64,000 nucleotides of DNA from Hypanus sabinus (GCF_030144855.1 NC_082728.1:33046001-33110000), one strand, 5' to 3'. Counted from the stretch's first letter, positions 13,546 to 42,741 are shown. Numbers and translations are program-made. Notes: generated by a model not told the origin, from the letters alone.

Positions 13546-14679
13546 CAAGATAGTGGATACTTAACAACCAATTTAAGATTAATAGCTAGGCAAGATTTTA
13601 GGTCAGCTCACTGCAGTAGTTTCTATTTTACCATTAAACTGAGGAGTGTTTCCTGGAACACAAGTGGAGCAGAAATAATGCAAACATTTTAAATATGATT
13701 ACAAAATAAGAACAAAAATCCTATTAAAATTATTCCACATTATAAGGAATACAAAATATTTATATGCAGTAAATCATGCAGATGTACACTCTGGCCATTT
13801 CACTAGAAACTGTACACCTGTTGTACACCAGACTGTAGAATGACTATTGGTGTCAGATGGGGTGGTTTGAATATCTCTGAAACAGTTGAAGGTGAAAAAC
13901 CCTTATTAATGAGAGAGGTTAGAGGAGAAAGTCCCTAAGGTGCCTAAATTCCAGACTGGTTCAACCTGACAGGAAGGCAGCTGGAACTCAAATAACCTTG
14001 TGTTACAACAGTAGGGTGCAGAAGAGCATCTCTGAATGTACAACACATCAAAACTTAAAGTGGATGGGGTATAGCTGATGAAGACCATAAACACTCATTG
14101 AATGTACATTATTTGGTAATTTGGGACAATGCAAAACTGAGAGGAGTTATAATTGTTGGGTTCACTATTTCTGCCCACTATAAATATGATTTTTGAAGTA
14201 TGATTCAAAAATCCATTACATTGAATCACACAAGGGAGCTTCATGATCTTTGACATTCTTGATCATATATTTAGTTCAAACTGATCATCAAGTTCCATTA
14301 AGCAACTGCATGCTTCCCACGTTCTTCCTCTTTCCAGCTTCAGATCTTGTCTTGCTATCCACAGTTTCTACACACCTCTAGTCACAGCCATTAGGGTCTT
14401 CTATTTCCTCTCCTCACCACATTATTTGATCATTATCAAATTGACGTGCAGATGTGCTTGCTTCACTCAAGATAACTGCCATATATTCCAAGCTGCAACG
14501 TTGACTAAATGTCAGTAGTGAACAGCAGTGAATAAATACATGTGTTTCCTTTCATTGAATCACCCATTGAAATTGCTACAGCATACATGGAGGCCTTGTA
14601 TTTTATAAACAGCCAATTCACAATAGAGGCTCAGAAGTTGCAGAGCTTGAATTTAATGATAAGTAAGATTCAAACTTAC

Positions 14680-14931
14680 CTTTAGATATGCAATCATTTC
14701 CAACGCAAGCAGAACAAGTATAGTTTATAGAGCACCAGTCTCCAACTACTGGAATGCAGCTGGTGGTGGTGTACAATTCACCTAGTCGTGCATTGTCAAC
14801 ACTATTACACAAGATGGTTTCATTTTCAGTCTTCCAATAAAGTTGTGCCAGTGGATATCCAACTGTTGTGCACACAAGAAATGTTTTGCCGTTTTCTTCT
14901 TTTTTGCTGATGGGTGGCCCAGTACATGGAG
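14680..14931 (-). CDS. IgC exon, distal copy, paralogue 2 (B7/PD-L-like C domain)
   Basis: Acceptor gcatgtttttcag ends at 14932 and donor gtaagt starts at 14679. The exon is 252 nt, phase 1-1 and open: (A)PCTGPPISKKEENGKTFLVCTTVGYPLAQLYWKTENETILCNSVDNARLGELYTTTSCIPVVGDWCSINYTCSACVGNDCISK. The C-x3-GYP-x-A-x3-W and LY-x-TS motifs resemble PD-L1/PD-L2 C domains. Confidence 0.85.
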
Positions 14932-15268
14932 CTGAAAAACATGCTTTATACCTTTAGCCATGTGACCATAGCATTGGATGCACAATGTCTAGCAGGTTAG
15001 CACTAATATCCATATTAACATTATGAATGTATTTTCCAGCTTTCTTTATAGAACAGCTTACATTCATATAACTCACTGCATAACTCAAATCTGAAACTAT
15101 TTGACTATTCAATCTATTAGGGTATTGACAGATGAAAGCTGGAACTTAGTGAGATATGAGGCAGCAGTTCTCCGTTACTTAGTCCCAGTGGTCTATAAAT
15201 AAATCCAGGAAAATAGTTGCAGATCTTCAACTAATAGAGCCTCAAAGTCAAAGATCCAACGTACATAC

Positions 15269-16129
15269 TGTTACGTATCCCGTAACTGGATTACTTACCA
15301 GCAAAGATAGAGAGGTCCGTTGATGTCTGATGTCACTATTTTCAAACGTTTTTATTTGTAAAGGGGCACAAAAGTAAGGTTAATACAAACATTCAGATAA
15401 TGCACGTCATCAATACTCAATCTAAAGCGTGGATATAGTAATAATCATCATTAAGAAATGAGCTCTACTGTTGTCTAGGGGATAATACATTGTCCGTTGG
15501 AAATATAAAAGTCACTCAGAAGTCTGCAGGCTTCAGCCTTTTGGGAATCGCTGGGTTTCACGTGGGGCGACCGAGAGAGAGAGAGAGATTGGGGAGAAGA
15601 GGAAAGACTTGCCGGGTCTTTATGAAGCTTCCATTGAATCGGGGGAGCGTTGGTTCCCCCTCCCCGATGTTAGTTAAAAGCGGTTTTCCATGATTGCAGC
15701 CACAAATTCCAATCCCGGAATCTAACGCACGTGGCTTCCTTCAAAATGGCTTCCCGCTATGGCGGGATCACTCTCGTGTCTTCTTGGTGCGTCTGAAGGG
15801 GCTGTCCCCCTTAGACCCTCCTTTATACTTCCTCACGGGGTCGCAGATTGGGGTCAATCATATTGGGATGATGCAATCTCTCTCTCAACCAGCCCACTTT
15901 GCCCGAGGGCTTTACATGTGGTCTCCATGAGACAATAGTCACTGTCGCCTTATTTGGCATCCCGGTGGAGCGTGCTATTCGGCACATTTCTCTCTCTCCC
16001 ATTTCCTGTGTCTATTCAGCATGTCTCTCTCTCTCCCACTTCCTGGCACTTCCTGGGTCTACTGACCCCCCCCCCCCCCCAATGGGTGCTCTTGCGATTC
16101 TCACAAAGGAGGGGGCTGGGATCATAACA
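15269..16129 (-). mobile_element. Solo LTR, 861 bp
   Basis: TGTTACG...CATAACA termini with a perfect 4-bp TSD ATAC (15265-15268 and 16130-16133). It is absent from the duplicate copy. TATAAA at 15822-15827 and AATAAA at 15351-15356 are on the minus strand. Confidence 0.9.
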
Positions 16130-17132
16130 ATACATTCAGTAATATGATTTCTTGCCAAATATATTCTGTAAGCATTACTGCCAATGGCAGATACTGTATA
16201 CAAATACACTATTAAACGTATGGAAATCTTCCTTTTCTGTCCCAATAACGTTAGGAGATTAGTAATGCACTGGGGCAGAAATTACAAGCGTTGTAGCTTG
16301 CACTTCTATGGCTATAATTTTAAATGACTAAATGAATATATTCCTATATCTTGCCTACCTACTCTGTATACTATTCAAAGAGGAGAAAGACCCGAAGTTC
16401 CCAAAATTCCAGACTGGTTCAACTTGACAGGAAGGTTGGAGGAACTCAAATAATCTTGCGTTATAACAGCAGGGTGCAGCAGAGCATTTCTGAATGTACA
16501 ACACATCAAACCTTAAAGTGGATGAGCTATGGTAGGTGAAGACCACAAACATACGCACATTGTATGTGCATAATTTGGTAATTTGGGACAATGCAGAACT
16601 GAGAGGAGTTACAATTGTTGGGTTCACTATTTCTGCCCACTGTAAATATGATTTTTGAAGTATGGTTCAAAAACAGATTACAATGAATCACACAAGGGAG
16701 CTTCATGATCTTTGACATTCTTGATCATTTATTTAATTCAAACTGATCATCAAGTTCCATCAAGCACCTGCATGCTTCCCAACTTTCTTCCTCTTTCCAG
16801 CTTCAGATCTTGTCTTGATATCTACAGTTTCTACACACCTCTAGTCACAGCCATTAGGATCTTCTATTTCCTCTCCTCACCACATTATTTGATCATTATC
16901 ATATGGACGTGCAGATGTGCTTGCTTTACTCAAGACAACTGCCACATACTCCAAGTTGCAATGTTGATTAAATGTCAGTAGTGAATAAATACATGTGTTT
17001 CTTTTCATCGAATCACTGATTGAAATTGCTACAGCATACATGGAAGCATTGTATTTTATAAACAGCCAATTCACAATAGAGGCTCAGAAGTTGCAGAGCT
17101 TACATTTAATGATAAATAAGATTCAAACTTAC

Positions 17133-17384
17133 CTTTAGATATGCAATCATTTCCAACGCAAGCAGAACAAGTATAGTTTATAGAGCACCAGTCACCAACT
17201 ACTGGAATGCAGCTGGTGGTGTTGTACAATTCACCTAGTCGTGCATTATCAACACTATTACACAAGATGGTTTCATTTTCAGTCTTCCAATAAAGTTGTG
17301 CCAGTGGATATCCAACTGTTGTGCACACAAGAAATGTTTTGCCGTTTTCTTCTTTTTTGCTGATGGGTGGCCCAGTACATGGAG
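17133..17384 (-). CDS. IgC exon, proximal copy, paralogue 2
   Basis: Same splice sites and phase as 14680-14931, 252 nt. I count 3 nucleotide differences, one of them non-synonymous (LYTTTS vs LYNTTS). Confidence 0.87.
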
Positions 17385-18387
17385 CTGAAAAACATGCTTT
17401 ACACCTTTAGCCATGTGACCATAGCATTGGATGCACAATGTCTAGCAGGTTAGCACTAATATCCATATTAACATTATGAATGTAATTTCCAGCTTTCTTT
17501 ATAGAACAGCTTACATTCATATAACTCACTGCATAACTCAAATCTGAAACTATTTGACTATTCAATCTATTAGGGTATTGACAGATGAAAGCTGGAACTT
17601 AGTGAGATATGAGGCAGCAGTTCTCCGTTACTTAGTCCCAGTGGTCTATAAATAAATCCAGGAAAATAGTTGCAGATCTTCAACTAATAGAGCCTCAAAG
17701 TCAAAGATCCAAAGTACATACGTGCAGTAATATGATTTTGTGCTAAATATATTTCGCAAGCATTACTGCCAATTGTGCATACTGTATACAAATACATCAT
17801 TAAAGGTAATAAATCTTCCTTTTATATCCCAATAACCTTAGGAGATTAGTAATGCACTGGGGCAGAAATTACAAGTGTTGTAGCTTGCACCTTTATTGCT
17901 ATTATTTTAAATGACTAAATGAATATATTACTATCTCTTACCTTCTTCAAATATCAGAAAACCTATCTACTTTGTATACTATTCACACAGGATTTTTTTT
18001 TGTAGACCACAATGGTCTACAATTTATGAATCTCTGATGTCTACATTCATTAGAAACTTCTATATTCTCAAATATAAATTACGCATTTAATCCACAAACT
18101 GAAAATCGTTTATTTTATTCATGCATATTTATTCAGTGTTTGATGAAACAGAGCCTCCTCAAGTTGGTAGAATTCAAAGCAATTTGTTGCAGTGATAAGA
18201 CTTCCAATGATGACATAAATTCAGCCATTCTTCCCTGTCAAAATATAACTATCAATATTGCATATGTCAGACTAACTCTCAAATCAAGATATTTTGAGAT
18301 ACAGTATTAACTGCAATTTTTTACCAAATAGATGTAACCAATATTCATAAAGAAAATTAAAAGCAGAGAAAATACGATATTACCCAC

Positions 18388-26836: not shown

Positions 26837-27211
26837 TGTTACACGGGGACGACGGAGGAGAATCCAAGTGCAGGACACCGACATGTCCACTCAGTTGGGG
26901 AGGCTGGCGTAGACCAGAACGTAGAGGAGGAAACCAGAGCGATCTTGACAAGGAGACGGGATTCACAGGGACTATCTAGAAACTAGAGCAGAACTTGGAA
27001 CTAACTGTTCTAAACGGAACAGGGAACAAAGTATCACACGAAAATTAACCAACGAATTGGCAACCTGTGATAGAGTCGTCCTCGTATTTATTCCCAGTCT
27101 CTGATGAAAGCCAGGTGTACGATTATTGGGTAACTAGCAGCAATTGACTGAAATTGGGGCATGATCAGGGAGAAGAGTGTTAAAGGGAAACGGCCAACGG
27201 GAACCATGACA
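26837..27211 (-). repeat. 3-prime LTR of the sushi-type element
   Basis: Preceded on the minus strand by the polypurine tract ggggggaggggggtat; matches 42378-42741. Confidence 0.9.
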
Positions 27212-29122
27212 ATACCCCCCTCCCCCCAATGGGAGCCTACCAGCATTCCTCCAGGCCTGTCCGGATGGTCCTGATGAAAGTCCTGAATGAGGAAAGGGTC
27301 TAGGATAAAGGAGCGGGGGAACCAGGAACGTTCTTCAGGACCGTACCCCTCCCAGTCCACCAGGTATTGGAGGCCCCTGCCCTGACGGCACACATCTAAC
27401 AGTCGTCGGACAGTGTATGCCGGATGGTTGGCGATGAGCCGGGCAGGGGGAGGAGTCTCAGCTGGGGGACACAAAGGGCTGACGAAGACTGGTTTTATCT
27501 GGGACACATGAAAGGTTGGGTAAATACGCATGGACTTGTGCAGCGTGAGGAGAACCGTTTCGATCTTGAGTGGTCCCAGGAAGTGGGGGGCGGGTTTCCT
27601 AAGTACTAGGGCGTATTTGAGCGGGCTGTCCTTGGCGGAAAGCCACATCATCCACCCCGGTTGGTACTCTGGTGCTGCAGTCCGGTGTCGGTCGGCCGTT
27701 TTTGTCGATCTGAGTAGGGCCGTGCGGGTCTCCTCCCAAAACTTCCGGCACCGATCAACATGGTCCCGAACCGACGGTACCGCGATCTCTTCTTCCTGAC
27801 CGGGGAACAGCAGCGGTTGATACCCAAGGGAGCACTCGAACGGGGACCTCCCAATGGTAGAGTTCACCAGGGAGTTGTGGGAGTACTCAATCCAGGGAGA
27901 TGGTCGCTCCAGGTTGACGGGCGGTTTGCTGTTACGCAGCGTAACGTTGCCTCCAGGTCCTGGTTGACCCGTTCCGTCTGCCCGTTTGTCTGGGGGTGGA
28001 AGCCGGATGACAGTCTGGCCGTTGCTCCTGGGGCTCGACAGAAGGCTCTCCATACCTGCGAGATGAACTGGGGACCCCGATCGGAGAGGATGTCCGCGGG
28101 GATTCCGTGGAGGCGGGAGATGTGATGGACTAGAAGATCTGTCGTTTCTTGCAAGGGTGGGAGCTTAGGGAGGGCCACAAAATGCACCGTCTTGGAGAAT
28201 CAGTCTACCACGGTGAGGACAGTTGTGTTTCCGCGGGAAGGGGATAGACCGGTGACGAAGTCTAGAGCGACGTGGGACCAGGGACGACCAGGTACAGGTA
28301 GGGAACGGAGTAATCCCGCAGGTAGCCGATGGGAGGCTTTTCCACGGGCGCAGACGGAACATGCGGAAACATAGGAACGGGTGTCAGGGTCCATGGAGGG
28401 CCACCAGAAATGCCTCTTCAGGAGGGTCAGGGTCCGATCAATTCCGGGATGGCAGGCGAAGCGAGAAGTGTGCCCCCACTGTAGGACCTGTGATCGAACA
28501 GCATCGGGTACAAAGAGGCGATTGCGAGGTCCGGTGCCTGGGTCGGGATGCGTCCTTTGGGCCCCTGACTTTGGACCCGATCTCCCAGGTGAGGGCAACC
28601 ATTACACAGAAATCCGGAAGAATGGTTTCGGAGTTGGGAAGATCCTCCTCGGCAACGTATTGGCGGGAGAGGGCATCGGGCTTCCCGTTCTTGGACCCCG
28701 GACGATAGGTGAGGGAGAACCTGAACCGGCCAAAAAATAATGCCCAACGGGCCTGGCGGGAATTCAGGCGTTTGGCGGTCTGGATATATTCATGGTTCTT
28801 GTGGTCTGTCCAGACGATAAATGGGTGTTCTGCCCCCCTCCAACCAATGCCTCCACTCTTCCAACGCCAGTTTGACCGCTAGTAGCTCCCGGTTCCCCAC
28901 TTCGTAGTTTCGTTCGGGGAGAGAAGGCGGCACGGGGATGTAGTCTCTGATCCGGGCCCGAACGTTGGGACAGTACCGCTCCCGCCCCGGAGTCAGAGGC
29001 GTCAAACTCCGCAATGAACTGACAGGAGGGGTTCGGTTGAATCAGAACAGGGGCAGACGTGAAACGCCTCTTCAGTTCGGCGAATGCGGAGTCCGCCCCG
29101 GAGTTCTAAAGGAAAGGGGTGG

Positions 29123-29471
29123 TATTGGAGTTTAAAAATATTACGGAGTATAAAACTTGTATCATTTGCTGTGTAACTAGTCAGTTTGCTATGTATGTAC
29201 TCAATTTAGTAGAATGAAATCTTAGGAATGTAAAAGACAAATGGTGTGTTAATGGAAGGTAGCTGAAGAGATGTAGATTAGAACTGTACATGTGGTAAGT
29301 GTGAAACTGGACCAGGATTTTGCTATAAAAAATGCCGTGTCCGAGGATCGGTGGGCAATCAGCGACTAGCTCAATGACTGTCTCAGCTTTGATTTGCAAA
29401 TTAAAGTTTAACCCTTCTTGAAGAATCTTCTGCGTCTCTTGGTCATTTGTGAGGCACGAAAAACCACGACA
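29123..29471 (+). repeat. ERV 5-prime LTR (U3 shortened)
   Basis: About 96% identical by eye to the 3-prime part of 39448-40151; ends ACGACA. Confidence 0.85.
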
Positions 29472-29475
29472 TAAT

Positions 29476-29493
29476 TGGCGACCGCTGCAGGAC
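29476..29493 (+). promoter_or_regulatory. ERV primer-binding site
   Basis: TGGCGACCGCTGCAGGAC begins 4 nt after the 5-prime LTR; the TGG is complementary to tRNA CCA. Confidence 0.7.
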
Positions 29494-30374
29494 CGGATAG
29501 AGACCCGCGGAAAGGAAACGGCAGACTGGGGGCACTTCCCAGTCCTCTAGGGACCCCCACAAGGCTAACAGAATTAAGGGTGCACCCAAACAAAAAGTAA
29601 GCGCTTTTTGCGACAATTTGGACTAAGAATTCTGTTGGCTTTCGGGAGGTCTTGGAGTCTCAGAAGTGTGGAACCACTGCCGAAGGGTCTCTCCGGTCCA
29701 CAGAATCTGGCAGAATTGGGGGTTAACAGAGGAGGCTCAGAGGATTGATCAAGAACACTGCAGTGAAGGTAAGTACAAAAAAGTTAATAAGAAGTTAAGA
29801 AAAAGTCCACGTGGTGTTGGTCAATCCCTGTGGGTACCGCTTCGTATGAAACGAAGGGCTGAACGGGCAGGGAAAGTAGAATAGAAAATCCTCGTGGATA
29901 CCGCCTTAAGAGATAAGGGTCTGAACGGCCGAGGTGTTTAGAGTAGAAAATCCTCGTGGATACCTCCTTAAGAGATAAGGGTCTGAACGGGCGAGGTGCA
30001 AAGAGCAAGTTCTGTAGGTACCGCTCTGATTAGAGGTCTGCACGGGCAGGACAGAATAGGAAACAAGTTCAGTCCAATATATAGTTAAAAGCGCTGGTAG
30101 ATAGACAATAGACTAGGCATAGAATTAGAGTAAGTTAAGAAAAAGTCCATGTGGTGTTAACCTAGGAAGAAAAAGTCCACATGGTGTGTAGAATTAGAGT
30201 GAATTTAGTGTAGAAAAAGTCCACGTGGTGTTAGACTAGGCGCAGAATTAGAGTAAGTAATATTATCCAGTAAACAAACTGTGAATCTCTGAAATACCTT
30301 AAAAAGATAGAATACATGACAGGTAAAGGAACGGCAGTAGAGATTCTGAGCAAAAAAATTCCCGTTAATTAATA

Positions 30375-32451
30375 ATGAGATCACAAAAACTTCAGAAAAA
30401 TGGGGAAAAAAGAACCAATAACCTGGTCACAAAGTGGCCAAGAGAAGGAACGTTTGATGTAAGTTTGTGCGAAGAAATGGGGGGACTAATTAAAAATTAC
30501 AAACCTAAAGATAAATCTAAGAAAAGAGAGCAAAAAAGAGAACGAGAAATGGAAGTGCTAAAACTCTTCAGAACGGAGGGGGAAAGGCTGAGGAGGACAG
30601 GTAGAATATTGATTACAAGCGAGGAAGACACTAAGGTGCTGGAGAAACAGCCTGTTAAAGAGAGAGAAGGGTGCGGTGAGAAGCTGGCTTCGGCTCCGTA
30701 CCCGGATGCGAAAGAAACAGAAAAACCCCCTCCCTATAATGAGGAAGGAACCCCTAAGCAGTGCCCCCTGCTGACAGTGACAGTAACCATGCAGGGAGAA
30801 GTCCAAGTTTGGGATAATGAGGAGGAGAAAAAACAATACGAGAAGGAAAAAGCGGCGATATGGAAGGAGATACAGGCAGAAAAGATGAAGATAGAACAGG
30901 TACAGAGAGAAATGGGAGAAGAGATTGAACGGATGAAATACTTAAAAGAGGAAAAGGAGTATGAGGAGTATTGGTTATACTATAGAAATAAACAGAGAAG
31001 GTGACTCATTGGAGGAACAAGAGTTAAGTGGAGAGAGAGAGGATGTGAGAATTTGTGGGGAAGAGATAGGAGGCAGTAGGGGAGCGACTTGTGGAAGTAG
31101 AGAGAGAGCCAGATAAGTTACTGAGAGTGGATTGCCAGATGTGAAAAATACTCCAGGGGCCAACCAAGTATTGAATCAGGACAGAAAGGAAGGACTCCAC
31201 AGGGAGACCGACGGAAGAAGAGAACCGCGGAGACATTTGTGTGGGAGGCAGTAAAGATATACCCTGAGACAGATGGGGAGTCAGGTGAGGAGGTGAGCCA
31301 GGGCAGTTGGGAAGAAGGAGGAAGAATGATGCCATTGTTAGTAAAAGGATCAGGACAAGTGCAGTACATCCCTTGGGGATCCCAGGACCTAGAAGGGCTG
31401 AAAAACACTCTGCCGATCTACATGAAGGAGCAGGGAAAATGGATTAGAGCCTTTGAAGAAGAAACAGCGGGACGATTATTGGCTATGGGAGATTTGAAGG
31501 CACTGTTGATAAGGTTGATGGGAACCTCCAAATTTAACGAACTAATGGAAATGGCTGGCATAGTAAACTCAAACGACCCGAGCACCGATGTAGACGGGTT
31601 TGACAGAGTGAGGCAGAGGGTATGGCAGGCCCTCAGAAAGTTTTATCCACCCAAAGTGGACCCCAAAGCCTTAAAAGGGGATCCACTGGGAGACACTGAA
31701 AACCCAGCAGCCTACGTAGAAAACCAGTTGAAAAGGTGGAGACTGGAGACTGAGCAAGAGGTGGAAAATAGCTTATTTATGACACTGTTCCGACATAGCA
31801 TTTTGGATGCAATGCTTCCACAAGTAAAATCCAAACTGAAGGAAGTGGTTGGGCTAACGTCAAAGACCCCACAAGAATTTAGAGACCACGTAGTCCATGC
31901 GGTTGAGAAATACCAGAAAGACAAACGAAGGTTGGCTGAGCAGCAGGAAGAGGTGCAAAGAAAGTTAATACAAATGCAGCTTGAAGAACTCAAAAAGAAG
32001 GAAAAAGAGAAAAGCAAAAAGATGCTGCCAGCAACCACTGGTCCGAGTACAGCCATTGAACTGGACAAAGCACTGCTATATGGGGGAACTGATCATACTG
32101 TAAGACAAGGGCTGGAAAACCCCATGCCAATAATCGTCTTTGGCGGAGCATTCCCACAAATGCCCTATCAGGAACAGACTAAATTCAAACAGCCCAGACA
32201 GGACTGGAAGTTCCAAGGAGGGGGACAGAGAAGCTATGGGGTAAAGGGGACCAGTGAGGAAACAGGGGGAAAGAGAAGTAGAGAGATTGTGCTGGGAATG
32301 TAATCAGCCAGGTCACATGAAAAGAGATTGTCCGTTTATACTATGGCCTGTCACACACCAGCAGGAACCGATAAGAAGGGAACTAAAGTTTAGCCAAGGA
32401 CCAGCCCCCACAGGCCCAAGCGGACCTGTGAACCCCTATGCGAGGTATTAG
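30375..32451 (+). pseudogene. gag: ERV gag (MA, CA, NC) with frameshifts and stops
   Basis: ORFs 30375-31004 (KWPREGTFD), 31239-32303 (capsid-like) and 32254-32451 with the knuckle CWECNQPGHMKRDC, ending in TAG. Confidence 0.85.
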
Positions 32452-35400
32452 GGGTGCCCAGAGAACTTGAGTGGGAAGGGACATTACCCAATGATAACAA
32501 GGGAGGCAGATGAGGAACCCATTGTTCAGGTTATGTTAGAAGGACAACTGACACCAATGCTGATAGATACTGGAGCCATGTACACTTGTGTACAGCCACA
32601 GTATGCCCTTCACCTTCCCATGTCAAGAAAGTTTATTAAGACGGTATGGTCTCGGGGAAAACACAGTTGACACAGTGCACGGCTCCACTGCGGTTGAGAA
32701 TGGGAAATAAAATTGTTTTGCCGGTGCTAGTATTTAAAGGAACTCCAATTAATTTGTTAGGCAGAGATGCCTTATTGAATTGGAATTAAAATTAGAATGC
32801 ACCAGAAATGGGCTGAGTGTGGGAAGAGCAGGGGCTCAATTGATAGTGCGAGAAGACAAGAAGGCTAATGTCTTTTGGATAGGAGACATCGCAGATCAGA
32901 TTCAGGAATCCTGGGAAAAATGGAAAAAGGGCGTGCAGGCTATATTACCCCCGGCTGTAATGCCCAAATCTGAGCTACATTGTACAGTGATCGTTGACGA
33001 GACTCAGAACGGGGAGTTAGAGGAGAAATGGCACCTAGAGGCGTGTACCCAGCAGCGCCTGGAAGGGGAGGCTGTGATAATTGGAAAGCAAGGGGCAGCT
33101 TTACAAGTTAAGTGGAACACCTTTTTAGAAAAATGGTACAGGATACCGGAGGCTGCGCCCCACGTAACGTTGTTGGTAAACATGGGATATCAGTCTAAAG
33201 ACTTAGGACCCTTAGTTAAGAGTGCTGAAACCGTAACAGTGTGGAGGAAAATCACGCCAGAGGTGTGGATATCAGAAGACAACAATTGTATTAAAATAAT
33301 GGTAAGTGTAGATATGGTAGGGACAGTGAGAGAGGTCGAAACAACTCCCCAACCACACCTGCCCTTGCTGGGAAAGGAAAGAGGCCAGCAGAAAGATAAA
33401 AGGTTAGATGAGTTGCCATCTATTCTGTGGCCACAGCATGACACGGACGTAGGGAAAATAAAAACAGCGAGTCCGGTGGAAGTAAGGCTGAAAAGGGGAG
33501 CAATTCCACCCCGGAGACCACAATACCCTCTAAGTCCAGAAGCAGAAGAGGGAATAGCATCGACAGTGCAGGGGTTGCTTGAAATAGGAGTGCTTAAAAG
33601 AAGCACTCCATGCAATAAAAAGTCCATGGAATACCCCGTTGCTGCTGGTTTTAAAAGCAGATAAATCTAAGTGGAGATTGGTGCATGATTTGCGAGCGGT
33701 AAATGATGTGGTAGAGGACTGGCCAGCGGTAGTCCCCAACCCACACACGCTTTTGACTAATGTTCCACCAGAAGCAAGTTACTTTTCAGTGATTGATTTG
33801 TGTTCGGCTTTCTTCAGCATTCCTGTAGCCCACCAGTGTCAGTATTTGTTTGCATTTACTTACAGAGGTGCTCAGTATACCTATACCAGAATGCCGCAAG
33901 GATTTAAACATTCACCACACGTTTTTAATCAGGTATTGAAGGCAGACCTGGAGGGTATGCCATTGGAAAGTACATTGTTACAGTATGTTGATGACCTGTT
34001 GATTTGCTCCCACAGTAAGGAACAGTGTGAGCAGGACACTATAACTCTGTTAGAGAAGCTAGCGCACGGAGGACATAAAGTATCCAGAAAGAAACTGCAA
34101 TTTTGCACACAGCAAGTGGAATACTTAGGCAGGGTAATATCCAAGGGAGTGAAGGCGATAGCACCAGATCAGATTGAGGCAATAACTAAGGCCGCCAAAC
34201 CCCAGACTGTAGGGCAGATGATGACGTTTTTGGGAATGGCAGGGTACAGCTCAGATTGGATAGGAGAATATACCGAGATTGTGGCACCTTTAAGAAAGAT
34301 AATGAAAGAAGCAGGACATACAAATTTGAAGAATGGCTTACAGTGGAATGGAGAGGCAGAGACAGCTTTCAATACTATTAAGCAGGAATTGCAGTCAGCA
34401 CCAGCATTAGCTTTGCCTGACTACGAGAAGGTTTTTTATTTGTATGTATCCAACCGACAGGAGGGTTATGTTACAGCAGTTCTAACACAAGAGACAGGCA
34501 CAGGAAAAGCAAAGCAGCCGATAGCATACTACATACAGTACGATACTAGATGAGGTGGCTCAGGGGTATCCACCCTGTTATCAGGGATTGGCGTCGCTGT
34601 ACTATGCATATGAAAAGGCATCATCTGTAACCCTGGGCTAGCCTGTGACTCTGTACACACACCACAAAGTAGCAGAATTACTAGAAAGAGGGAAATTTGT
34701 GTTAACGCCAGCTAGGATAGCAGTGTATCAGATGCTATTGACATTTCCAGATATAACTATACAGAGATGCACTACCAGTAATATAGCCGATTTTGTCCCT
34801 TTAGACTATGAAGGAGAACCCCATGATTGTGTAGGGAAGACGATGGCATTTGCCAAATTAAGAGCAGATTTACGATCAGAACCAGTAGAGGATGCAGATA
34901 AAAAGGTTCTTTTCGTAGATGGCTCTTGTTATAGGGATTATGATGGAAATCACGCAGGGTTCTCAGTCGTGCAGCAGGATCAGTCGAGCTATAAGATTAT
35001 TAGGATGGAGTCCTGTCCCCAACCGTGTTCCGCCCAACTAGCGGAAATCAAAGCCCTGATAGCTGCGTGTGAAATGATGGAAGGTGAGAAAGTAGACACC
35101 TATACTGATTCGGCATATGCTCATAAAGTATGCCATTTGTTCGGGGCAGTGTGGAAGCAGAGAGGTTTTAAAAAAAAGTAGCGGAGATCCCATACAACAT
35201 TGTCCGCAAATTCTAGACTTAATAAAAGCCATAATGAAACCTAAAGCATTGGCTATAGTAAAATGCCAGGCACATTAAAAGGGAAACGATGTAATAACAA
35301 AGGGAAATCAAGCTGTGAAGCCTAACTCCAGAACCTGAGGTAGAGGACCTGATTGAAATACAAGGTAAGGCAACTTTGGCAGAACAGACAATGTGGAGAA

Positions 35401-35872
35401 AAAGGGGGGCCAAGCAGAACCCGGAAGGCTTGTGGAGCACGGAAGATGGTTTGTTGGTAGCGCCCACCCCGCTCCTGACGATTCTGATTTCAGAGGCGCA
35501 TGGGATGGACCATTGTGCAAGGGAGGGAAGTGATAAAGAAAATAAAGAAGGATGGTTTTTGGTCACCTTATTTACAGGCTTCAGTGGACTTTTTCTTGTC
35601 ACAGTGTGAGGTATGCGCACAGAATAATGTTCGAAAGGGAATTACAACCCCAATAGGCCACATTCCTGTACCTGAAGGACCATTTAAACATCTAGTGGTC
35701 GATTACGTAGACATGATAAAGACAGTGAGAGGGAAAAGATACATGCTGGTAGTAATTGATTGATTTAGCAGATGGGTGGAGGCGGTACCTTCAAAAGATC
35801 AAGGGGCAAAGACGGTGGTAAGATTTCTGACAAATGAAGTGATCCCAAGGTTTGGAATACCTACAGAAGTTA
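32452..35872 (+). pseudogene. pol: ERV pro-pol: protease, 2H phosphoesterase-like domain, RT, RNase H, integrase N-half
   Basis: MLIDTGA (PR), LHCT and PHVTL (2H), DLRAVN / IDLCSAFF / QYVDDLL (RT), LFVDGS (RH), CEVC and HLVVDYVD (IN), with several frameshifts. Confidence 0.92.
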
Positions 35873-35880
35873 GCTTAAAC

Positions 35881-38568
35881 AAACTATAATGTGTTGCATT
35901 TATGAAATCGATGAACTCCTGCAGAGAAAACGAATTACATTTCTGCATGCAACAAAAACATTTTGAACTCCGAAAAAAAGACAGGTTGAAGTTTACTTTT
36001 AAGTAAAATAATCAATGTCTATTTGAGTCCTTCTTGTATTTATGAAAAACACTGAACCTACATTGTCCACCAGCAGCAAACCAAAAATAACGACAGCCAG
36101 CTGTCAACCTGAAAAATAAAAGGACTATTTCACTGAACAATGAAAAAATATGAATATATGTAAAATAATAGGCAATTAAAATATTTATCATACTTGGTTA
36201 ATGGGATTTCTGCTCCTGGACCTCAGCACACAGTGTCTGCACATCAGGGCTGTATGACGTCACCTTCATCTTTACACAGGATCGCAAGCTGTCATCTGTG
36301 AGGCGTGCGCGATGTTTGTTTTTAATACAGTTCATGTTGGAGAACACCTGCTCATACACATATGTTGATCCAAAGATCGACAGGACGCCAAGCGCATACT
36401 TTTTAATGTTTACATAAATGTCGGGGATAGCATTCCATGTTTCGAACACAAGTTTGTCCGGTTTGGGGAGGTTTTCAATATCACTCCATTTGTGATTCTG
36501 AGCAAGAACGGCCTTCTGACGGGCAACATCTTCAAGGTCTGCTGTCAAGCGTCTAAACTTGGACACCCATATGTCTTTGTCGGCTATGTCGGCCAGTTCC
36601 ATCTCAAGATCAGGTTGACTCACACCTGCCAATGCAGTCGTATTCAGTGGGATGGATTGATGCTTAGGGGAGTGACCAGGAAGGATAATGTGTTTTTTAC
36701 CTCTCTGAACTCACAGAAGCGTTTCCCAAACGATGTTTGCATTGCGATGATTGCAGAATGTAAATACCCCGAATTTATCATGTCGTGAGCTTGTTTGAAC
36801 TCTCTCAAATTGGGGAAGTGAGACAATGTGCCTTTCTGTAAATCTCTGGCAAGCACTGTCAACTTGTGCTGGAATGCCAAAACATCCTCCAACATGTGCA
36901 GGGCTGTGCATCCTTTCCCCTGAAGAGCTGTGTTCAGTGTGTTCAGGTGCGCTGTCATGTCTACCATGAAGTATAGCTTTTACAGGCACTCTGGCTGTTC
37001 CAGCTCAGGAAAGGTGAGACCTTTACTGCCCAGCAAAGTTTTCACTTCTTCCAGACACACGACAAAGCGTTTCAGCACCTCCCCTCTTGACAGCCACCGG
37101 ACTTTGTTGTGCAGCAGGAGATCAGAATATGCGCTTTCCAGCTCGTCCAGTAACAAACGGAATTAACGGTGATTTAAACTTCTTGCCATTATTTTATTGA
37201 CAATCTGAATGACAAGATCCATTACTTCCATGCATTCCGTAGGAAATGTTTGAGCGCACAGTGCCTCTTGGTGCAAGATGCAGTGAAAAGTCAGCAGCTT
37301 TCTGTCCAGCGACTTCTGCAGTAAAGCCACAAATCCCTTGTGCGCTCCTGTCATACTTGGTGCCCCATCAGTAGCTACTGACACCAGGTGGGTGGTCTTT
37401 ATTACTTTGGCTCTTAAACAATTCAAGACAGCCTCACAGATGTCCTCCCCCCGTGTCTGGCCTTTTAGAGGTATCAACTCAATCATTTCTTCCTGTGGCC
37501 CGGCAGAGTTTACATACCGGTGGAACAGCGCTAATTGTTCAATATCACCTTTGTCTTTAGACTCGTTACAGGCAACCGAGTAGGCCACAGCTGAATTGAT
37601 GTCTTTAATTTACTGTCTTCTGATGTCATCTGCCATTTTTATGGTTCTGTCTTTGACAGTCTTTGCAGAGAGGGGCATATCCCTGATTTTCTGCACTATT
37701 TCACTCTTGTTTTTAAAGTCCGTGAATAGATGTTCTGAAATCTTAATGAAAGATTCTTTTATATATTCACCATCTGTAAACTGCTTCCCGTGCCTGACTA
37801 TTTCCTGAGCGGCAACAAAACTAGCATATGTCGTTGATTTTCCAGACATCATCCACTTCTTGAAATGATTTTTGCTGAGATCAACCTTCCGCATCAGTTC
37901 CGAAACGGCTTTTTTTCTCTCATCTCCATCCGGATATTTTTGAGCAAAGGCTGCGTGTTTATTCTGGAAATGTCTTGCGAATTTGACTTTTTGTTGTTTG
38001 CTAGTTTCTCATTGCATATTAAGCATACCGGTAAACCAGTCTCGTCAGCAGTGAAAGCAAATGAATCTGCCCACGTATCATTAAATGTTCTGTTTTCTTC
38101 AGTCACTTTTCTTTTTTTTTAAGAATTCTCCATAGTTAGCCTACCTTGGATCGAAAAATTAAAGAAATCGCGCACTGGCGGGTGTCAGGCATTGGCCGTG
38201 GTGACGTATATTAATAGCGACAAACAACGCGTTTTATTTAGATTGTACAAGATCACCATAATCTTCAAATTTAGAATTACATTTCAAAAACTAACAAACT
38301 AACATAAAATACATTTTAATTAAATACTCATCATTTATTTTCCAAAGCCATAGGGAGCCGCAGCACAGAGATGAAAGAATCGGATGCGGCTCCGGAGCCG
38401 CGGGTTGCCGACCCCTGGTTTATACATAGCATAAAGGCAAAAAAAAAATGTTGTATGCAGTGTTATTTCATTTTAAATGTCAAACGGGTTTTGTGGCTCC
38501 CAGTGTTTTCTTTTCTGTGAGAGACGGGTCCAAATGGCTCTTTCAGTGGTAAAGGTTGCCGACCCCTG
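35881..38568 (-). mobile_element. hAT DNA transposon (SPIN/Charlie-like, GTF2IRD2-type transposase), rearranged
   Basis: Transposase fragments 38106 to 36198: BED-like CLIC, SVATDGAPSM, FHCILHQEAL and the hATC motif SIFGSTYVYEQVFS. TIR gttgccgacccctg occurs at 38404-38417 and 38555-38568. 8-bp TSD GCTTAAAC/GCTTAGAC. Confidence 0.92.
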
Positions 38569-38822
38569 GCTTAGACAATGGTTCAGCTTTTATCCAGAAA
38601 GTGGTCAAACTGCTACTACAGGCGCTGAGGACAAAGCAAAGATTTGGATGTGTATACCACCCTCAGTCGCAGGGCATGGTAGAGAGAATTAATGGAACCC
38701 TGAAAGCCAAACTAAACAAAATTTGTGCAGACACTAAACTTAATTGGGTCGATGCTTTACCGTTAGCATTGATGAGTTACCACATGCAAACTAATCGAAT
38801 GACATGCCTGACACCGCATGAG
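38569..38822 (+). pseudogene. pol: ERV integrase, C-half of catalytic core
   Basis: Resumes exactly after the hAT: LDNGSAF...YHPQSQGMVERINGTLK...LTPHE, then an abrupt junction to env. Confidence 0.9.
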
Positions 38823-39416
38823 ATTGCTGCAGGCTGGGAAGCTGTCATACCTGTGATAGGGGTAAGCAAAAATGTTTAATGGATAAACTACATATACTAT
38901 AATCAACAGAGATTCATCAACTACACCGATGATGCACTGGAGGCCTTAGGGCAACAGCTAGATGCAACTAGCAGGATGGCGTGGCAAAACAGACAGGTAC
39001 TGGATTGGCTTTTGGCAGGAAAAGGGGGTGTGTGTGTAATGTTTGGAGAACAATGCTGCACTTTCATACTGAACAATACTAGCCCAGAAAGGTCTTTCAC
39101 CAGAGCAATGAATAAATTAAAGAATCTGCGGACGGAGGTCAAACAGAATGCAGGGTTCGGACATCAGTTTTTTGATTGGTTAGAAAGTAGACTCAGAGGA
39201 TGGGGAGCATGGCTGACTAAAATGGCAATAACTGTCAGTATTGTAATGTTGAGCTGTGCGTTTGTGCTGTGCTGTTTTCTTCCTTGTCTCAAATCTCTTA
39301 TAGTGCGTGCTGCAACCAAACAATTTCCGATGCTCGTGGCAATTACCGAAGCAAGCTTAGTGAAGAAAGAAACACCGAAAATGTTATCGTTACAGCCTAC
39401 AACACCTGCAGGATGA
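38823..39416 (+). pseudogene. env: ERV env TM subunit remnant
   Basis: WINYIYYNQQRFINYT heptad, QNRQVLDWLL immunosuppressive-domain-like motif, CVMFGEQCC (CX6CC) and a hydrophobic anchor. Open from 38880 to 39416; SU is absent. Confidence 0.88.
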
Positions 39417-39447
39417 ACAAGAGCAAAACGACAGTGTGGGAGTAGAT

Positions 39448-40151
39448 TGTAAGGGCTTATGAGTCTTTTTCCCTGTCTCAGGTACAAAGGGACAGGTTTT
39501 TTTGGCTCAGCGGCCCAGGGTAACAGGGAGAGAATACTTTTGAGGACTTGGTGCAGAAAATTATAGTTTAACCTGAGATTTGGGAATAAATGTTTGAGTT
39601 TATTGAGGCTTTTGTGCGCGGACTCTTAGTCTTCTTTCTCTGTGTGAGTCCCTCTGGGTCTCAAAGGGCGTTTATATATATTTTGGAGTATAAAAATATT
39701 ATGGAGTATAAAACTTGTATCATTTGCTGTGTAACTAGTCAGTTTGCTATGTATGTACTCAATTTAGTAGAATGAAATCTTAGGAATGTAGAAGACAAAT
39801 GGTGTGTTAATATATGGTAATGAGAGGTAGCAGGGAGATGTAGTCAGCTTTGAAACTTGCTATTTGCTATGCATGTACCCAATTTAGCAAGAGAACGAAA
39901 TCTTAGGAATGTAAAAGACAATGGTGTGTTAATGGAAGTTAGCTAAAGAGATGTAGATTAGAACTGTACATGTGGTACATGTGAAACTAGACCAGGATTT
40001 TGCTATAAAAAATGCCGTGTCTGAGGATCGGTGGGCAATCAGCGACTAGTTCAATGACTGTCTCAGCTTTGATTTGCAAATTAAAGTTCAACCCTTCTTG
40101 AAGAATCTGCTGCGTCTCCTGGTCATTTGTGAGGCACGAAAAACCATGACA
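39448..40151 (+). repeat. ERV 3-prime LTR
   Basis: TGTAAGGG...ATGACA after a purine-rich tract, with an internal tandem unit of about 120 bp. The 5-prime boundary is inferred from TG and the PPT only. Confidence 0.75.
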
Positions 40152-42377
40152 GTAGCAGGTGAGTTAAGTCGGGTAAGGGGGCCGCCACCTGACTGTAGTT
40201 TCTGATGAACCGGCGGTAGAAGTTCGGCGGTAGAACACCGTTGGTGTCGCTTGCGGTCCGTGGGTTTGGGCCACCCTGCCACAGCCTGGATCTTCTCAGG
40301 ATCAGCTCTCACCTGTCCACGCTCGATGATATACCCTAGGAAGCTGACCGAGGGGACGAGGAATTCGCATTTCTCTGCCTTTATGAATAATTTATTCTCC
40401 CCCAGCCTCTGCAGGACTTGATGGACGTGTTGGACGTGTTGCTGGGGACTGCTGGAAAAGATCGGGGTATCATCCAGGTAGACAAACACACAGCGGTTAA
40501 GGAAGTCTTTTAGACATCATTAATCAAGGCTTGAAAAACTGTGGGGGTATTGGTGAGGCCGAAAGGCATGACTAATTACTTGAAGTGGCCTAACGGGGTA
40601 TTGAAAGCCGTCTTCCACTCGTCCCCCTCCCTTATCCGGACCAAATGGTAGGCATTTCGGAGATCCAACTTCAAGAAGATGGTGGCTCCATGAAATGGCT
40701 CGAACGCAGAACATAAGAGGCAGTGGGTACTTGTTCTTAATGGTGATATGATTTAGGCCTCGGTAACCGATGCAGGGATGGAGAGAGCCGTCCTTCCCCA
40801 CAAAGAATCCAGCACCCACCGAGGAGGATGAGGGTCGAATAATAGGGCCGCGAGAGACACACTAATGTATTTCTCCATGGCTTCTTTCTGAGGCCGGGAC
40901 AAGTTATACAGGTGACTGGTGGGTAACGAGGACCCGGGAAGAAGGTGGATAACACAGTCATACGGGCGGTGTGGAGGCAGGGAAAGAGCATGTTGCTTGC
41001 TGAATACCTGTCCCAGGTCATGATATTCTGTGGGAACTCTGGACAAGTCGAGAGTTTCAAAGACGGGCGAGGTCACTGTATCCTCCCTAGGGGATAGGGT
41101 TGACTTCAGACGGGTGGCGTGGCAAAATGGGCTCCAGCTGGCTATCCTCCCGGTAGACCGATAAATGTCAGGGTTTTGGCGGCGTAGCCAGGGGTATCCA
41201 AGTACTATCGGGGCTTGAGGAGAGGAGATTAGGTTAAATTGTACCTGCTCCCGATGATTCCCAGAGAGGATCAAAGACAGTGGAGTAGTAGGGTGAGTGA
41301 CTCGAGCCAGTACCCGCCCTTCCAGAGGGGTAGACAGCGGCTCCCGAGGAATTCCGGCCTGGACAGCTATGTCTTCATCCAACAGATTCCCCTCAGTACT
41401 GGAGTCTATCAAGGTAGACAAGGACAAGGACTGTCGATTGTAGGTTACAGAAGCTTGGATCTGCATCCAGGCTTGGGGAACCGAAGGGAGATTCACCAGA
41501 ACAGTTGGAGTGGGGGCTACACTAGGAGCGGACGGGGAAGAGAGGCTGGCTGAAGATGTTAAGGTGGGCTGTAGGATGACCCGCGGAGCGGGGTGACTGG
41601 TCTTTTCTCTCAGATGTTCTCGAAGTCGATTATCTAGCCTGGTGGCTAGAGAGACCAGAGTCCAGGCTGTTCGCATCATCCCTGGCCGCTAATTCAATTT
41701 TTGTCAGAGAGACCCGGTCGAAACACTTCATGTAGTGCTTCGTCATTCCACCCAGAATCAGCCGCTAATGTTCGGAACTCTACAGAGTATTTCGCTACGC
41801 TTCGCGAGCCCTGACCGAGAGTCAGAAGGCGCCTAGTGGCGCCCTTCCCGCGAATGGGATGTTCCAAAACTTTCCTCATCTCCGAGATGAAGGTGGAGAA
41901 GGAGGAACAGACCTCTGGCCGGTTGTCTCAGATCGCGGTGGCCCATGATAAGGCATCCCTTCCTAACAGCCCCATGATGTACGCAATTTTGATCTGTCCG
42001 AACTGTACGTACGTGGCTGTTGCTCAAAAACCAGAGAGCACTGCTGTAAGAAAGCCCAGCACCTTCCTAGGTCCCCAGTGTAGGGTTCTGGTTCAGGTAC
42101 GTAAGGCTCTCGAGGTGATTGTGTTACCGAGCCCAGGGGTGTAGCCATCCCAGGCTGTGCGGTTTGGTCAGACTGGGTTCTTGGAAAGGACAGAGTAAGG
42201 GGAGCGGATACCCGAACAACCTGCTCACTGACCTTCTTTACATCCTCAGGTAGGGCATGAAGATCTTTCATGACTTCTCTGAGTAGTTGATCATGTATGC
42301 CCAGTAGGGAGCCCTGGCTAAGGAGGGCCTGTTGCACCAGGTCCATGTCCACTGGGTGCATTCTGGCTAGTTCGTTC

Positions 42378-42741
42378 TGTTACACGGGGGCAACAGAGGA
42401 GAACCCAAGTGCAGGACACTGGCACGTCAACTCATTTGGGGAGGCTGGTGTAGACCTGAACATAGAGCAGGAAACCAGAGGAATCTTGACAAGGAGACGG
42501 GATTCACATGGACTCTCTAGAAACTAGAGCAGAACTTAGAACTACTGGTTCTAATCAGAACCAGGAAGAAAGTATCCAACAAACTAGCAACCTGTGATAG
42601 AGTCATCCTTGTATTTATTTACCAGTCTCTGTTGAAAGCCAGGTGTACGATTATTGGGTAACTAGCAGCAATTGACTGAAATTGGGGCATGATCAGGGAG
42701 AAAGAAGTGTTAAGAGGGAACTGCCAACCAGAACCATTACA
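42378..42741 (-). repeat. 5-prime LTR of the sushi-type element
   Basis: Matches 26837-27211; the gag ATG follows 17 nt downstream on the minus strand. Confidence 0.9.

What the first reader, a model, noticed from the sequence alone, without database searches (positions are those of the whole stretch)
32860..33280. Endogenous retrovirus Pol carries a 2H phosphoesterase (CNPase-like) domain between protease and RT, with both catalytic motifs intact
Seen: the uninterrupted 294-aa frame 32780-33664 runs from just after the protease into the RT N-terminus (WPQHDTDVGKI...QYPLS). It contains about 190 extra residues with two H-x-T-hydrophobic motifs, LHCTV (His at 32978) and PHVTL (His at 33161), 61 aa apart. 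Established: paired HxT/S motifs define the 2H superfamily; vertebrate CNPase uses HCTT and H(I/V)TL; and 2H enzymes of coronaviruses (ns2) and rotavirus (VP3) degrade 2-5A to block RNase L. To my recollection 2H domains have been noted in some fish retroviral polyproteins, so the domain class may not be new. Inference: a retrovirus-encoded nucleotide phosphodiesterase, either an innate-immunity antagonist (2-5A or cyclic dinucleotides) or an RNA/tRNA-end processing enzyme. Its substrate is unknown.
Basis: partly seen in the sequence, partly recalled or inferred. Interest (0 to 1): 0.78.

Follow-up and report, generated by a model that had tools for sequence, protein, structure and literature searches.

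The report
CNPase-like enzyme inside ray retrovirus polymerase
A dead retrovirus fossil in what is likely a stingray genome carries, between its protease and reverse transcriptase, a conserved domain predicted to fold like the enzyme CNPase; such domains are already reported from bony-fish retroviruses, and this one likely opens cyclic-phosphate RNA ends rather than destroying the immune signal 2-5A.

Summary
Window 32849-33340 encodes a 164-aa domain with two HxT motifs between protease and RT of a decayed, high-copy class I endogenous retrovirus (closest named proteins: stingray). AlphaFold with 99 sequences gives pLDDT 96.6. The best folds are CNPase (Z 15.6-17) and fungal Trl1 CPD (12.9); ns2 (8.0), AKAP7 (7.6) and Acb1 (7.6) rank far lower. 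The model has the helix after motif 2 that is described as CNPase-specific. Both motifs are kept in 81 of 99 relatives that cover them, most 23-58% identical. The domain class is in print for fish retroviruses, and this scan has noted it twice before on other genomes. This copy is broken on both sides of the domain. Added here: the spacing to RT is almost fixed (86-89 aa in 51 of 53) while the protease side varies, so the domain likely stays on RT; and the same fold lies in walleye virus Env. Most likely it is a virion-borne 2',3'-cyclic phosphodiesterase, not a 2-5A antagonist. I found no functional test. New member of a known kind.

The parts
32849..33340 (+). CNPase-type 2H phosphoesterase domain (164 aa) in Pol
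   Evidence: AlphaFold pLDDT 96.6; CNPase Z 15.6 over 163 of 164 residues, up to 17.0
32975..32989 (+). first 2H motif LHCTV (His at 32978)
   Evidence: H-x-T/S in 98 of 114 proteins covering it
33158..33172 (+). second 2H motif PHVTL (His at 33161)
   Evidence: H-x-T/S in 120 of 137 proteins covering it
33194..33229 (+). predicted helix after motif 2 (residues 116-127), matching CNPase helix alpha7, with Gly at His+15
   Evidence: Gly in 41 of 42 long relatives with both motifs
33341..33610 (+). linker and RT N-terminal arm (first conserved RT Trp at 33428, 89 aa after His2)
32491..32848 (+). retroviral protease (in three frames) and protease-2H linker; follows the gag TAG in frame
   Evidence: RVP match; frames
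33597..35335 (+). RT core, connection and RNase H, in several frames
   Evidence: RVT_1 E 3.8e-29, RNase_H E 1.6e-12
35322..38879 (+). integrase, split at about 35880/38575 by an inserted element of about 2.7 kb
38880..39416 (+). env remnant, transmembrane part only (gamma-type, TLV_coat)
   Evidence: TLV_coat E 2.7e-11; follows integrase directly, so SU is missing
30369..32452 (+). gag, in pieces; zinc knuckle near the end
   Evidence: gag identity read from position and the knuckle, no Pfam gag match
29125..29471 (+). 5' LTR
   Evidence: 14 mismatches in 347 aligned columns against the 3' LTR
29476..29493 (+). primer binding site, 17 of 18 bases complementary to the 3' end (with CCA) of a host tRNA-Arg(TCG)
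39683..40151 (+). 3' LTR (122 bases longer than the 5' LTR)

Best explanation
The stretch is a conserved two-histidine domain inside the Pol of a decayed fish-type endogenous retrovirus, predicted to fold like CNPase and likely to work as a virion-borne 2',3'-cyclic phosphodiesterase that stays attached to the reverse transcriptase. Shown: its place between protease and RT, conservation of both motifs, purifying selection while the family was replicating, and decay of this copy. Predicted: the CNPase-type fold with the helix after motif 2. Inferred: in the active virus it was made with Gag-Pol by read-through of the gag TAG and packaged; the protease cut in the variable linker on its N-terminal side and left a 2H-RT protein; the two histidines open 2',3'-cyclic phosphates to 2'-phosphate/3'-OH ends on RNA nicked by host nucleases (tRNA primer, viral RNA or their fragments), which heals ends for reverse transcription or removes cyclic-phosphate ends that innate sensors see. 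My odds: 2H fold 0.97; CNPase-type chemistry 0.7; kept on RT 0.55; acts on RNA ends in or near the core 0.45. In this genome the copy is a fossil.
For: Fold: pLDDT 96.6, pTM 0.90. Every listed Foldseek PDB row (to rank 50) is CNPase or RICH. VIA: CNPase Z 15.6 (rmsd 3.7, 163 aligned) against 9.4 for the next family; CNPase up to 17.0, RICH 13.4, fungal Trl1 chain 6u05 12.9. ESM Atlas first hits 0.96, tRNA_lig_CPD on 18-63% of members. A domain profile finds CNPase/RICH in 16 of 18 weak PDB hits (E 0.4-1.6). CNPase determinants: helix alpha7 is matched by model helix 116-127; Gly at His2+15 as in the host's CNPase; aromatic at His1+5, as Phe235, in 34 of 41. Conservation: both motifs in 81 of 99. 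Selection: pN/pS 0.48, 0.36 for shared differences, in 23 copies chosen by RT. Link to RT: His2 to RT Trp 86-89 aa in 51 of 53, against 77-103 aa from protease to His1 in 39; 2H and RT distances correlate (rho 0.93, 45 rows). Delivery: the same fold is in walleye virus Env (TM 0.83-0.84), which has a cytoplasmic loop of about 170 aa.
Against: No activity, substrate or cleavage site was tested. Identity to CNPase is only 9-16% and rmsd 2.6-3.9; a shared fold shows no function. The Arg307 position is basic in 0 of 41 and the Val321 position is Lys/Arg in 32 of 41 (positions matched by offset from the His, not by superposition), so the pocket differs from CNPase. A fixed spacing to RT may only reflect a fixed-length RT arm, and a place in Env shows that RT attachment is not required in every virus. 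A 2'-phosphate end may be a poor primer (my inference). The host has an OAS cluster, so 2-5A may exist here. The domain is less constrained than RT in the unbiased samples (shared pN/pS 0.36 against 0.13-0.22). Most retroviruses lack the domain (own knowledge), so it is not essential to reverse transcription as such.
Confidence: 0.5

Rival explanations
1. It is a 2',5'-phosphodiesterase that destroys 2-5A, like coronavirus ns2/NS4b, rotavirus VP3 or AKAP7.
For: Same superfamily (ns2 Z 8.0, AKAP7 7.6, VP3 7.0-7.4). The host has a tandem OAS cluster on C31. Viral 2H enzymes of this kind are established.
Against: Z is about half that for CNPase. The model carries the helix described as absent from other 2H enzymes. 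All named long relatives are from ray-finned fishes, where OAS is reported missing in some genomes. Only two KEN exons were found in the host, both IRE1-like by my reading (weak, 17 candidates scored).
Confidence: 0.12
2. It degrades cyclic dinucleotides (cGAMP), shielding the reverse-transcribing virus from cGAS-STING, like phage Acb1 or the avipox cGAMP PDE.
For: Acb1 Z 7.6 and penguinpox cGAMP PDE Z 6.8; Acb1 among weak BFVD hits (E 0.014 and above). A DNA-making virus would gain from it, and 2H folds change substrate easily (own knowledge).
Against: These matches rank far below CNPase and Trl1 CPD. Four tested 2',5'-PEs do not cut cGAMP, so the activity is not general in the fold.
Confidence: 0.15
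3. It is a CNPase-type enzyme released as a free protein that clears small 2',3'-cyclic nucleotides or cyclic-phosphate RNA fragments in the cytoplasm, with no tie to RT.
For: The closest fold, CNPase, acts on 2',3'-cNMP. RNA with cyclic-phosphate ends stimulates RIG-I/MDA5, NLRP3 and TLR8. The Env location in walleye viruses fits a cytoplasmic job.
Against: Nearly fixed spacing to RT and fewer cleavage-like motifs on the RT side (10 of 53 against 26 of 39 on the protease side; the motif is my recalled approximation). Pol is made in small amounts (own knowledge).
Confidence: 0.18
4. It has a structural or decoy role (RNA binding, or countering host CNP, which blocks lentivirus assembly) and catalysis is incidental.
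For: Host CNP binds HIV-1 Gag and blocks assembly; the host has a CNP gene.
Against: His and Thr/Ser of both motifs are among the best-kept residues (37 of 38 and 41 of 41 in A2). CNP's antiviral determinants lie in its N-terminal domain and prenylated tail, which this domain lacks.
Confidence: 0.05

Closest known systems
2H ('CNPase') domains of fish retroviruses: epsilon-like ERVs of ray-finned fishes (Basta et al. 2009, as cited in PMC4977317) and fish retroviruses including WDSV (Mazumder et al. 2002, as cited in PMC9503650)
   Same: Same class of domain in the same class of virus; relatives with protease-2H-RT order come from pipefish, tilapia, Danio, catfish and other ray-finned fishes. 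Best viral folds: Q2VF30_1 (TM 0.87; unnamed in the tool, recalled as salmon swim bladder sarcoma virus Gag-Pol), WEHV1 Env and WDSV Env.
   Different: Host is likely a ray (cartilaginous fish). I could not read the two primary papers, so I cannot say whether they give the position, the link to RT or the alpha7 helix. In walleye viruses the fold lies in Env, not Pol.
Vertebrate CNPase catalytic domain (mouse 2xmi/9eru, human 1woj, goldfish RICH 2i3e; Pfam PF05881)
   Same: Whole-domain fold (159-163 of 164 residues aligned, Z 13-17), both motifs, helix after motif 2, Gly at His+15, aromatic at His1+5 in most relatives.
   Different: 9-16% identity; about 50 aa shorter, with 61 rather than 79 aa between the histidines; no N-terminal PNK-like domain or prenylated tail; Arg307 and Val321 positions differ; no Pfam match in this copy. 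About 15% identical to the host's own CNPase over 55 columns, so not a recent capture.
Fungal tRNA ligase Trl1 CPD domain (6u05; Pfam PF08302)
   Same: Z 12.9 over 152 residues; top ESM Atlas clusters; also a module of a multi-domain enzyme acting on RNA ends.
   Different: 9% identity; no kinase or ligase partner is encoded by the virus.
2',5'-phosphodiesterases (MHV ns2, MERS NS4b, rotavirus VP3, AKAP7) and cGAMP-cleaving 2H enzymes (Acb1, avipox PDE)
   Same: 2H fold and motifs; virus-encoded.
   Different: Z 6.8-8.0 over 110-132 residues; CNPase's alpha7 helix is described as absent from other 2H enzymes.

Membership tests
2H phosphoesterase superfamily | two H-x-T/S-hydrophobic motifs | tested here: met
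   LHCTV and PHVTL; both in 81 of 99 relatives covering them
2H phosphoesterase superfamily | bilobed 2H fold | tested here: met
   predicted model pLDDT 96.6; the 21 chains with Z of 5 or more are, by title or my recall, 2H proteins
2H phosphoesterase superfamily | His-dependent phosphoesterase activity | not testable with these tools
   needs an enzyme assay
CNPase/Trl1 CPD clade | closest fold is CNPase, with a helix (alpha7) directly after motif 2 | tested here: met
   Z 15.6-17.0; model helix 116-127; Gly at His+15 in 41 of 42; alpha7 described in PMC4643303. Predicted, not solved.
CNPase/Trl1 CPD clade | substrate-binding residues Tyr168, Phe235, Arg307, Val321 | tested here: inconclusive
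   aromatic in first strand 19 of 21, aromatic at His1+5 34 of 41 (not in this copy), basic at His2-2 0 of 41, Lys/Arg at His2+12 32 of 41; matched by offset only
Vertebrate CNPase (PF05881) | Pfam match above cut-off; N-terminal PNK-like domain and prenylated tail | tested here: not met
   no Pfam family at E up to 1; 1 of 41 relatives at E 0.011; flanks are protease and RT. It works like CNPase at most; it is not a CNPase orthologue.
CNPase/Trl1 CPD clade | hydrolyses 2',3'-cyclic phosphate to 2'-phosphate | not testable with these tools
   needs an enzyme assay
2',5'-phosphodiesterases (ns2, NS4b, VP3, AKAP7) | fold nearest to this group, without the CNPase helix | tested here: not met
   ns2 Z 8.0, AKAP7 7.6, VP3 7.0-7.4 against CNPase 15.6 in the same run; helix present in the model
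2',5'-phosphodiesterases (ns2, NS4b, VP3, AKAP7) | host has an OAS-RNase L pathway | tested here: inconclusive
   OAS cluster present; two KEN exons only, IRE1-like by my reading; exon-wise search is weak
2',5'-phosphodiesterases (ns2, NS4b, VP3, AKAP7) | cleaves 2-5A | not testable with these tools
   needs an enzyme assay
Fish retroviral 2H domains | 2H domain in the polyprotein of a class I fish retrovirus, homologous to those of ray-finned fish elements | tested here: met
   48 long proteins at E up to 0.001 with the domain profile, all named ones from ray-finned fishes; window groups with P0011, P0052 and pipefish P0029 in both RT and 2H trees; TM 0.83-0.87 to three retroviral models
Class I (gamma/epsilon-like) endogenous retrovirus | LTR-PBS-gag-TAG-pro-pol-env-LTR, MLV-like RT, gamma-type TM | tested here: met
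   profile A1 matches MLV RT best among solved structures

The most novel reading that the evidence does not exclude
A whole lineage of fish retroviruses, from rays to teleosts, matures a reverse transcriptase with a CNPase-type RNA end-healing enzyme fixed to its N-terminus, which repairs nuclease-cut tRNA primers or genome ends inside the core; walleye epsilonretroviruses deliver the same enzyme from the inner loop of Env. This would be a retroviral counter-defence at the level of RNA ends and a natural RT fusion of a kind I did not find described.
Probability: 0.25. Interest if true: 0.75.

Novelty: new member of a known kind. Interest (0 to 1): 0.4.

Why it matters
The domain has been noted in fish retroviruses since 2002 (as cited in PMC9503650), yet my searches found no test of it. 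The structural ranking narrows the question: CNPase-type cyclic-phosphate chemistry should be assayed first, 2-5A and cGAMP second. A 164-aa soluble domain makes this cheap. If the domain stays on RT and heals RNA ends, it would show that host nucleases which leave cyclic phosphates are a pressure on retroviruses. It would also offer a clue to the old question of what CNPase's own substrate is. This particular copy matters little: it is one decayed member of a family with hundreds of copies.

Tried and rejected
Pfam and PDB sequence search found nothing for the single sequence. A single-sequence AlphaFold run failed (pLDDT 36.6). A PDB search with alignment A1 was swamped by RT and redone with the domain-only A2. 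A viral-contig scan with A2 could not run, so the position of the fold inside walleye virus Env was not read from sequence. Host co-option of this copy: rejected; it is broken on both sides, has no Met ahead of the domain, and among 30 copies chosen by RT only 21 keep both motifs. Recent capture of the host's CNP gene: rejected (15% identity, probability 12%). Chance motifs: rejected. Transcription: contigs of four runs (two guessed to be RNA, two recorded as RNA) cover the family, in 30, 30, 27 and 7 of 30 bins; these are contigs, no silent control stretch was laid, so this is no evidence of expression. RNase L was not found in the host; this is a weak negative. Papers not held: Basta 2009, Mazumder 2002, Paul 2006, Holzschu 1995. 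Paper searches for a functional study of the retroviral domain listed none; the library lacks most subscription journals. No supplements were read; those of the unread papers may describe the domain in more detail.

Full report
OBSERVATION. The frame and motifs are as described. The stop-to-stop frame is 32753-33664, and 32780-33664 gives 294 aa. His codons are at 32978 (LHCTV) and 33161 (PHVTL), 61 aa apart. Two such motifs arose in 0.097% of 100,000 shuffles, and at 55-110 aa spacing in 0.032% (pattern chosen after the fact). The folded part is about 164 aa, 32849-33340.

SETTING. The domain lies in a provirus with LTRs at 29125-29471 and 39683-40151 (14 mismatches in 347 aligned columns). 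The primer site matches a host tRNA-Arg(TCG) at 17 of 18 bases. Gag is in pieces and ends in a TAG in frame with the protease. RT, RNase H, integrase and a gamma-type TM remnant match Pfam. The copy is dead: the protease lies in three frames, the 2H frame is cut from the RT core near 33600, later pol changes frame several times, integrase is split by an element of about 2.7 kb, and SU is missing. The first Met in the 2H frame lies inside the domain. The genome is 4.04 Gb and gave 973 candidates for the domain; the 150 scored are 88-100% identical. The three closest named proteins (87-89%) are from the stingray Hypanus sabinus, so the host is likely a ray.

FOLD. Sequence searches with the single protein fail: 0 Pfam families and 0 PDB chains; a single-sequence model is poor. 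With an alignment of 99 sequences (the window plus 98 of the stored hits) AlphaFold gives pLDDT 96.6 and pTM 0.90. Foldseek's listed PDB rows are all CNPase or RICH. Against 48,161 representatives CNPase scores Z 15.6 (rmsd 3.7, 163 aligned), then drCPDase 9.4, a LigT-type ligase 9.0, MHV ns2 8.0, Usb1 7.8, Acb1 7.6, AKAP18/AKAP7 7.6, VP3 7.0-7.4 and penguinpox cGAMP PDE 6.8. A second look gives CNPase up to 17.0, RICH 13.4 and the fungal chain 6u05 (Trl1 by my recall) 12.9. The ESM Atlas gives tRNA-ligase CPD clusters at 0.96, with a recognition value slightly under its threshold. A domain-only profile (A2, 41 rows) finds CNPase or RICH in 16 of 18 weak PDB hits. PMC4643303 (passages) describes helix alpha7 after motif 2 as conserved in CNPases and absent from other 2H enzymes, and names Tyr168 and Phe235 as binding residues. 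The model has a helix at 116-127, starting 11 residues after His105. A Gly lies at His+15 here, in the host's CNPase and in 41 of the 42 long relatives that show both motifs, out of 48 examined. In A2 an aromatic residue lies at His1+5 in 34 of 41 rows, though not in this copy; the Arg307 position is basic in 0 of 41 and the Val321 position is Lys/Arg in 32 of 41 (matched by offset). So the pocket is CNPase-like but not the same.

CONSERVATION. A search of 1.84 billion representatives gave 168 proteins at E up to 0.001; of the 150 listed, all but one are 23-58% identical. Among 153 stored proteins (including two repeat-rich false hits that I left in), motif 1 is intact in 98 of 114 that cover it, motif 2 in 120 of 137, and both in 81 of 99. 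Of 32 proteins scanned with Pfam, those with protease or RT matches place the domain after the protease and before RT; P0076 has a further RT match upstream. The profile search found 48 long proteins; every named one is from a ray-finned fish. 2H and RT distances correlate (rho 0.93, permutation p 0.001, 45 of 54 rows), and the window groups with the same relatives (P0011, P0052, pipefish P0029) in both trees (24 of 54 rows plus the window, quick trees, midpoint root). The domain has thus travelled with RT as one unit; I did not test a donor. Within the genome, the 30 copies chosen by 2H similarity keep motif 1 in 29 and motif 2 in 28 (biased). Among 30 chosen by RT, 26, 23 and 21 keep motif 1, motif 2 and both. 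After leaving out 6 near-duplicates, 23 of 24 cover the domain: pN/pS is 0.48 (private 0.63, shared 0.36), 5 have stops and 8 have frameshifts relative to the window. RT parts in unbiased samples have shared pN/pS of 0.13-0.22. This is purifying selection during replication, weaker than on RT, followed by decay.

HOW IT IS DELIVERED. From the protease's GRD Gly to His1 the distance is 77-103 aa (39 rows, SD 5.3). From His2 to the first conserved RT Trp it is 86-89 aa in 51 of 53 rows (SD 1.9). A Gln-hydrophobic-hydrophobic motif, my recalled approximation of a protease site, occurs in 26 of 39 protease-side linkers and 10 of 53 RT-side linkers. I infer that the domain is cut from the protease and likely stays on RT. 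In BFVD the best matches are Q2VF30_1 (TM 0.87; unnamed in the tool, recalled as salmon swim bladder sarcoma virus Gag-Pol) and the Env proteins of WEHV1 and WDSV (TM 0.84 and 0.83). PMC3185748 (passages) puts a cytoplasmic loop between residues 874 and 1045 of WDSV Env, the size of the domain; that the match lies there is my inference. Both places face the cytoplasm and the virion interior.

MECHANISM. Best reading (0.5): a virion-borne CNPase-type cyclic phosphodiesterase that turns RNA 2',3'-cyclic phosphate ends into 2'-phosphate/3'-OH ends, healing primer or genome ends or removing ends that sensors see. PMC8406329 (passages) notes that such ends stimulate RIG-I/MDA5, NLRP3 and TLR8, and that four 2',5'-PEs do not cut cGAMP. 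Against 2-5A antagonism (0.12): the fold ranking, the alpha7-like helix, the spread in ray-finned fishes, some of which lack OAS (PMC2852836, passage), and only two KEN exons in the host, IRE1-like by my recall. For it: the host has an OAS cluster, and PMC6307210 (passages) lists an elephant shark OAS. cGAMP degradation (0.15), a free cNMP-clearing enzyme (0.18) and a non-catalytic role (0.05) remain open.

WHAT IS KNOWN. PMC4977317 (passages) says that epsilon-like ERVs of ray-finned fishes occasionally encode a CNPase or macro domain, citing Basta 2009. PMC9503650 (passages) lists 2H domains in fish retroviruses and WDSV, citing Mazumder 2002. Neither primary paper was held, nor Paul 2006 or Holzschu 1995. 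PMC4422223 on shark ERVs has no occurrence of 'phosphodiesterase' or 'CNPase' in its main text. I also saw passages of PMC5434554, PMC9967133 and PMC10761555. Eight searches (listings only) showed no functional study. Two earlier notes of this scan describe the same domain on other genomes, one in a shark; they are AI notes and add no support. A look-up by sequence showed none.

VERDICT. Real, conserved and of a known kind: a new member, in a dead copy. Interest 0.4; the RT-fused end-healing case has probability 0.25 and would deserve 0.75.

Noticed in passing
window 26837-42710: Three nested insertions: a chromodomain LTR retrotransposon on the minus strand (LTRs about 26837-27180 and 42378-42710; Chromo E 1.9e-8) holds the retrovirus, which holds a hAT-like DNA element.
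   Followed up: partly
window 35880-38575: Element of about 2.7 kb on the minus strand inside integrase, with a weak hAT dimerisation match (E 0.004, below cut-off); no terminal inverted repeats found.
   Followed up: partly
L001 (G000:C42:32990877-32994368) and L003 (G000:C42:32906340-32909831): Near-identical copies of this stretch lie about 86 kb and 171 kb upstream on the same contig (7 mismatches in 3481 and 44 in 3470 columns): likely a tandem segmental duplication of the region, or an assembly repeat.
   Followed up: no
G000:C31:79654985-79853208 (L031-L034): Tandem cluster of about eight OAS-like genes, while no RNase L-like KEN exon was found. What ray OAS signals to is open.
   Followed up: partly
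BFVD entries Q9WHI8 and A4GTG3: The same fold lies in the Env of walleye epidermal hyperplasia virus 1 and WDSV; WDSV Env has a cytoplasmic loop of about 170 aa between two membrane helices, the size of the domain.
   Followed up: partly
window 29476-29493 and L070:1448-1521: The primer binding site matches a host tRNA-Arg(TCG).
   Followed up: yes
window 29845-30260: Short direct repeats in the leader between PBS and gag (62-nt pair, and repeated AAAAAGTCCAC-like units seen).
   Followed up: no
proteins P0073, P0082, P0102, P0124: Relatives that keep the 2H domain with RNase H or integrase matches but show no RVT_1 match: likely internally deleted elements or spliced gene models.
   Followed up: no
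window 3509-4389, 61392-63290 and 13921-17943: LINE-like RT fragments and a duplicated block of about 2.46 kb spacing; no host gene was recognised among the long frames scanned.
   Followed up: no
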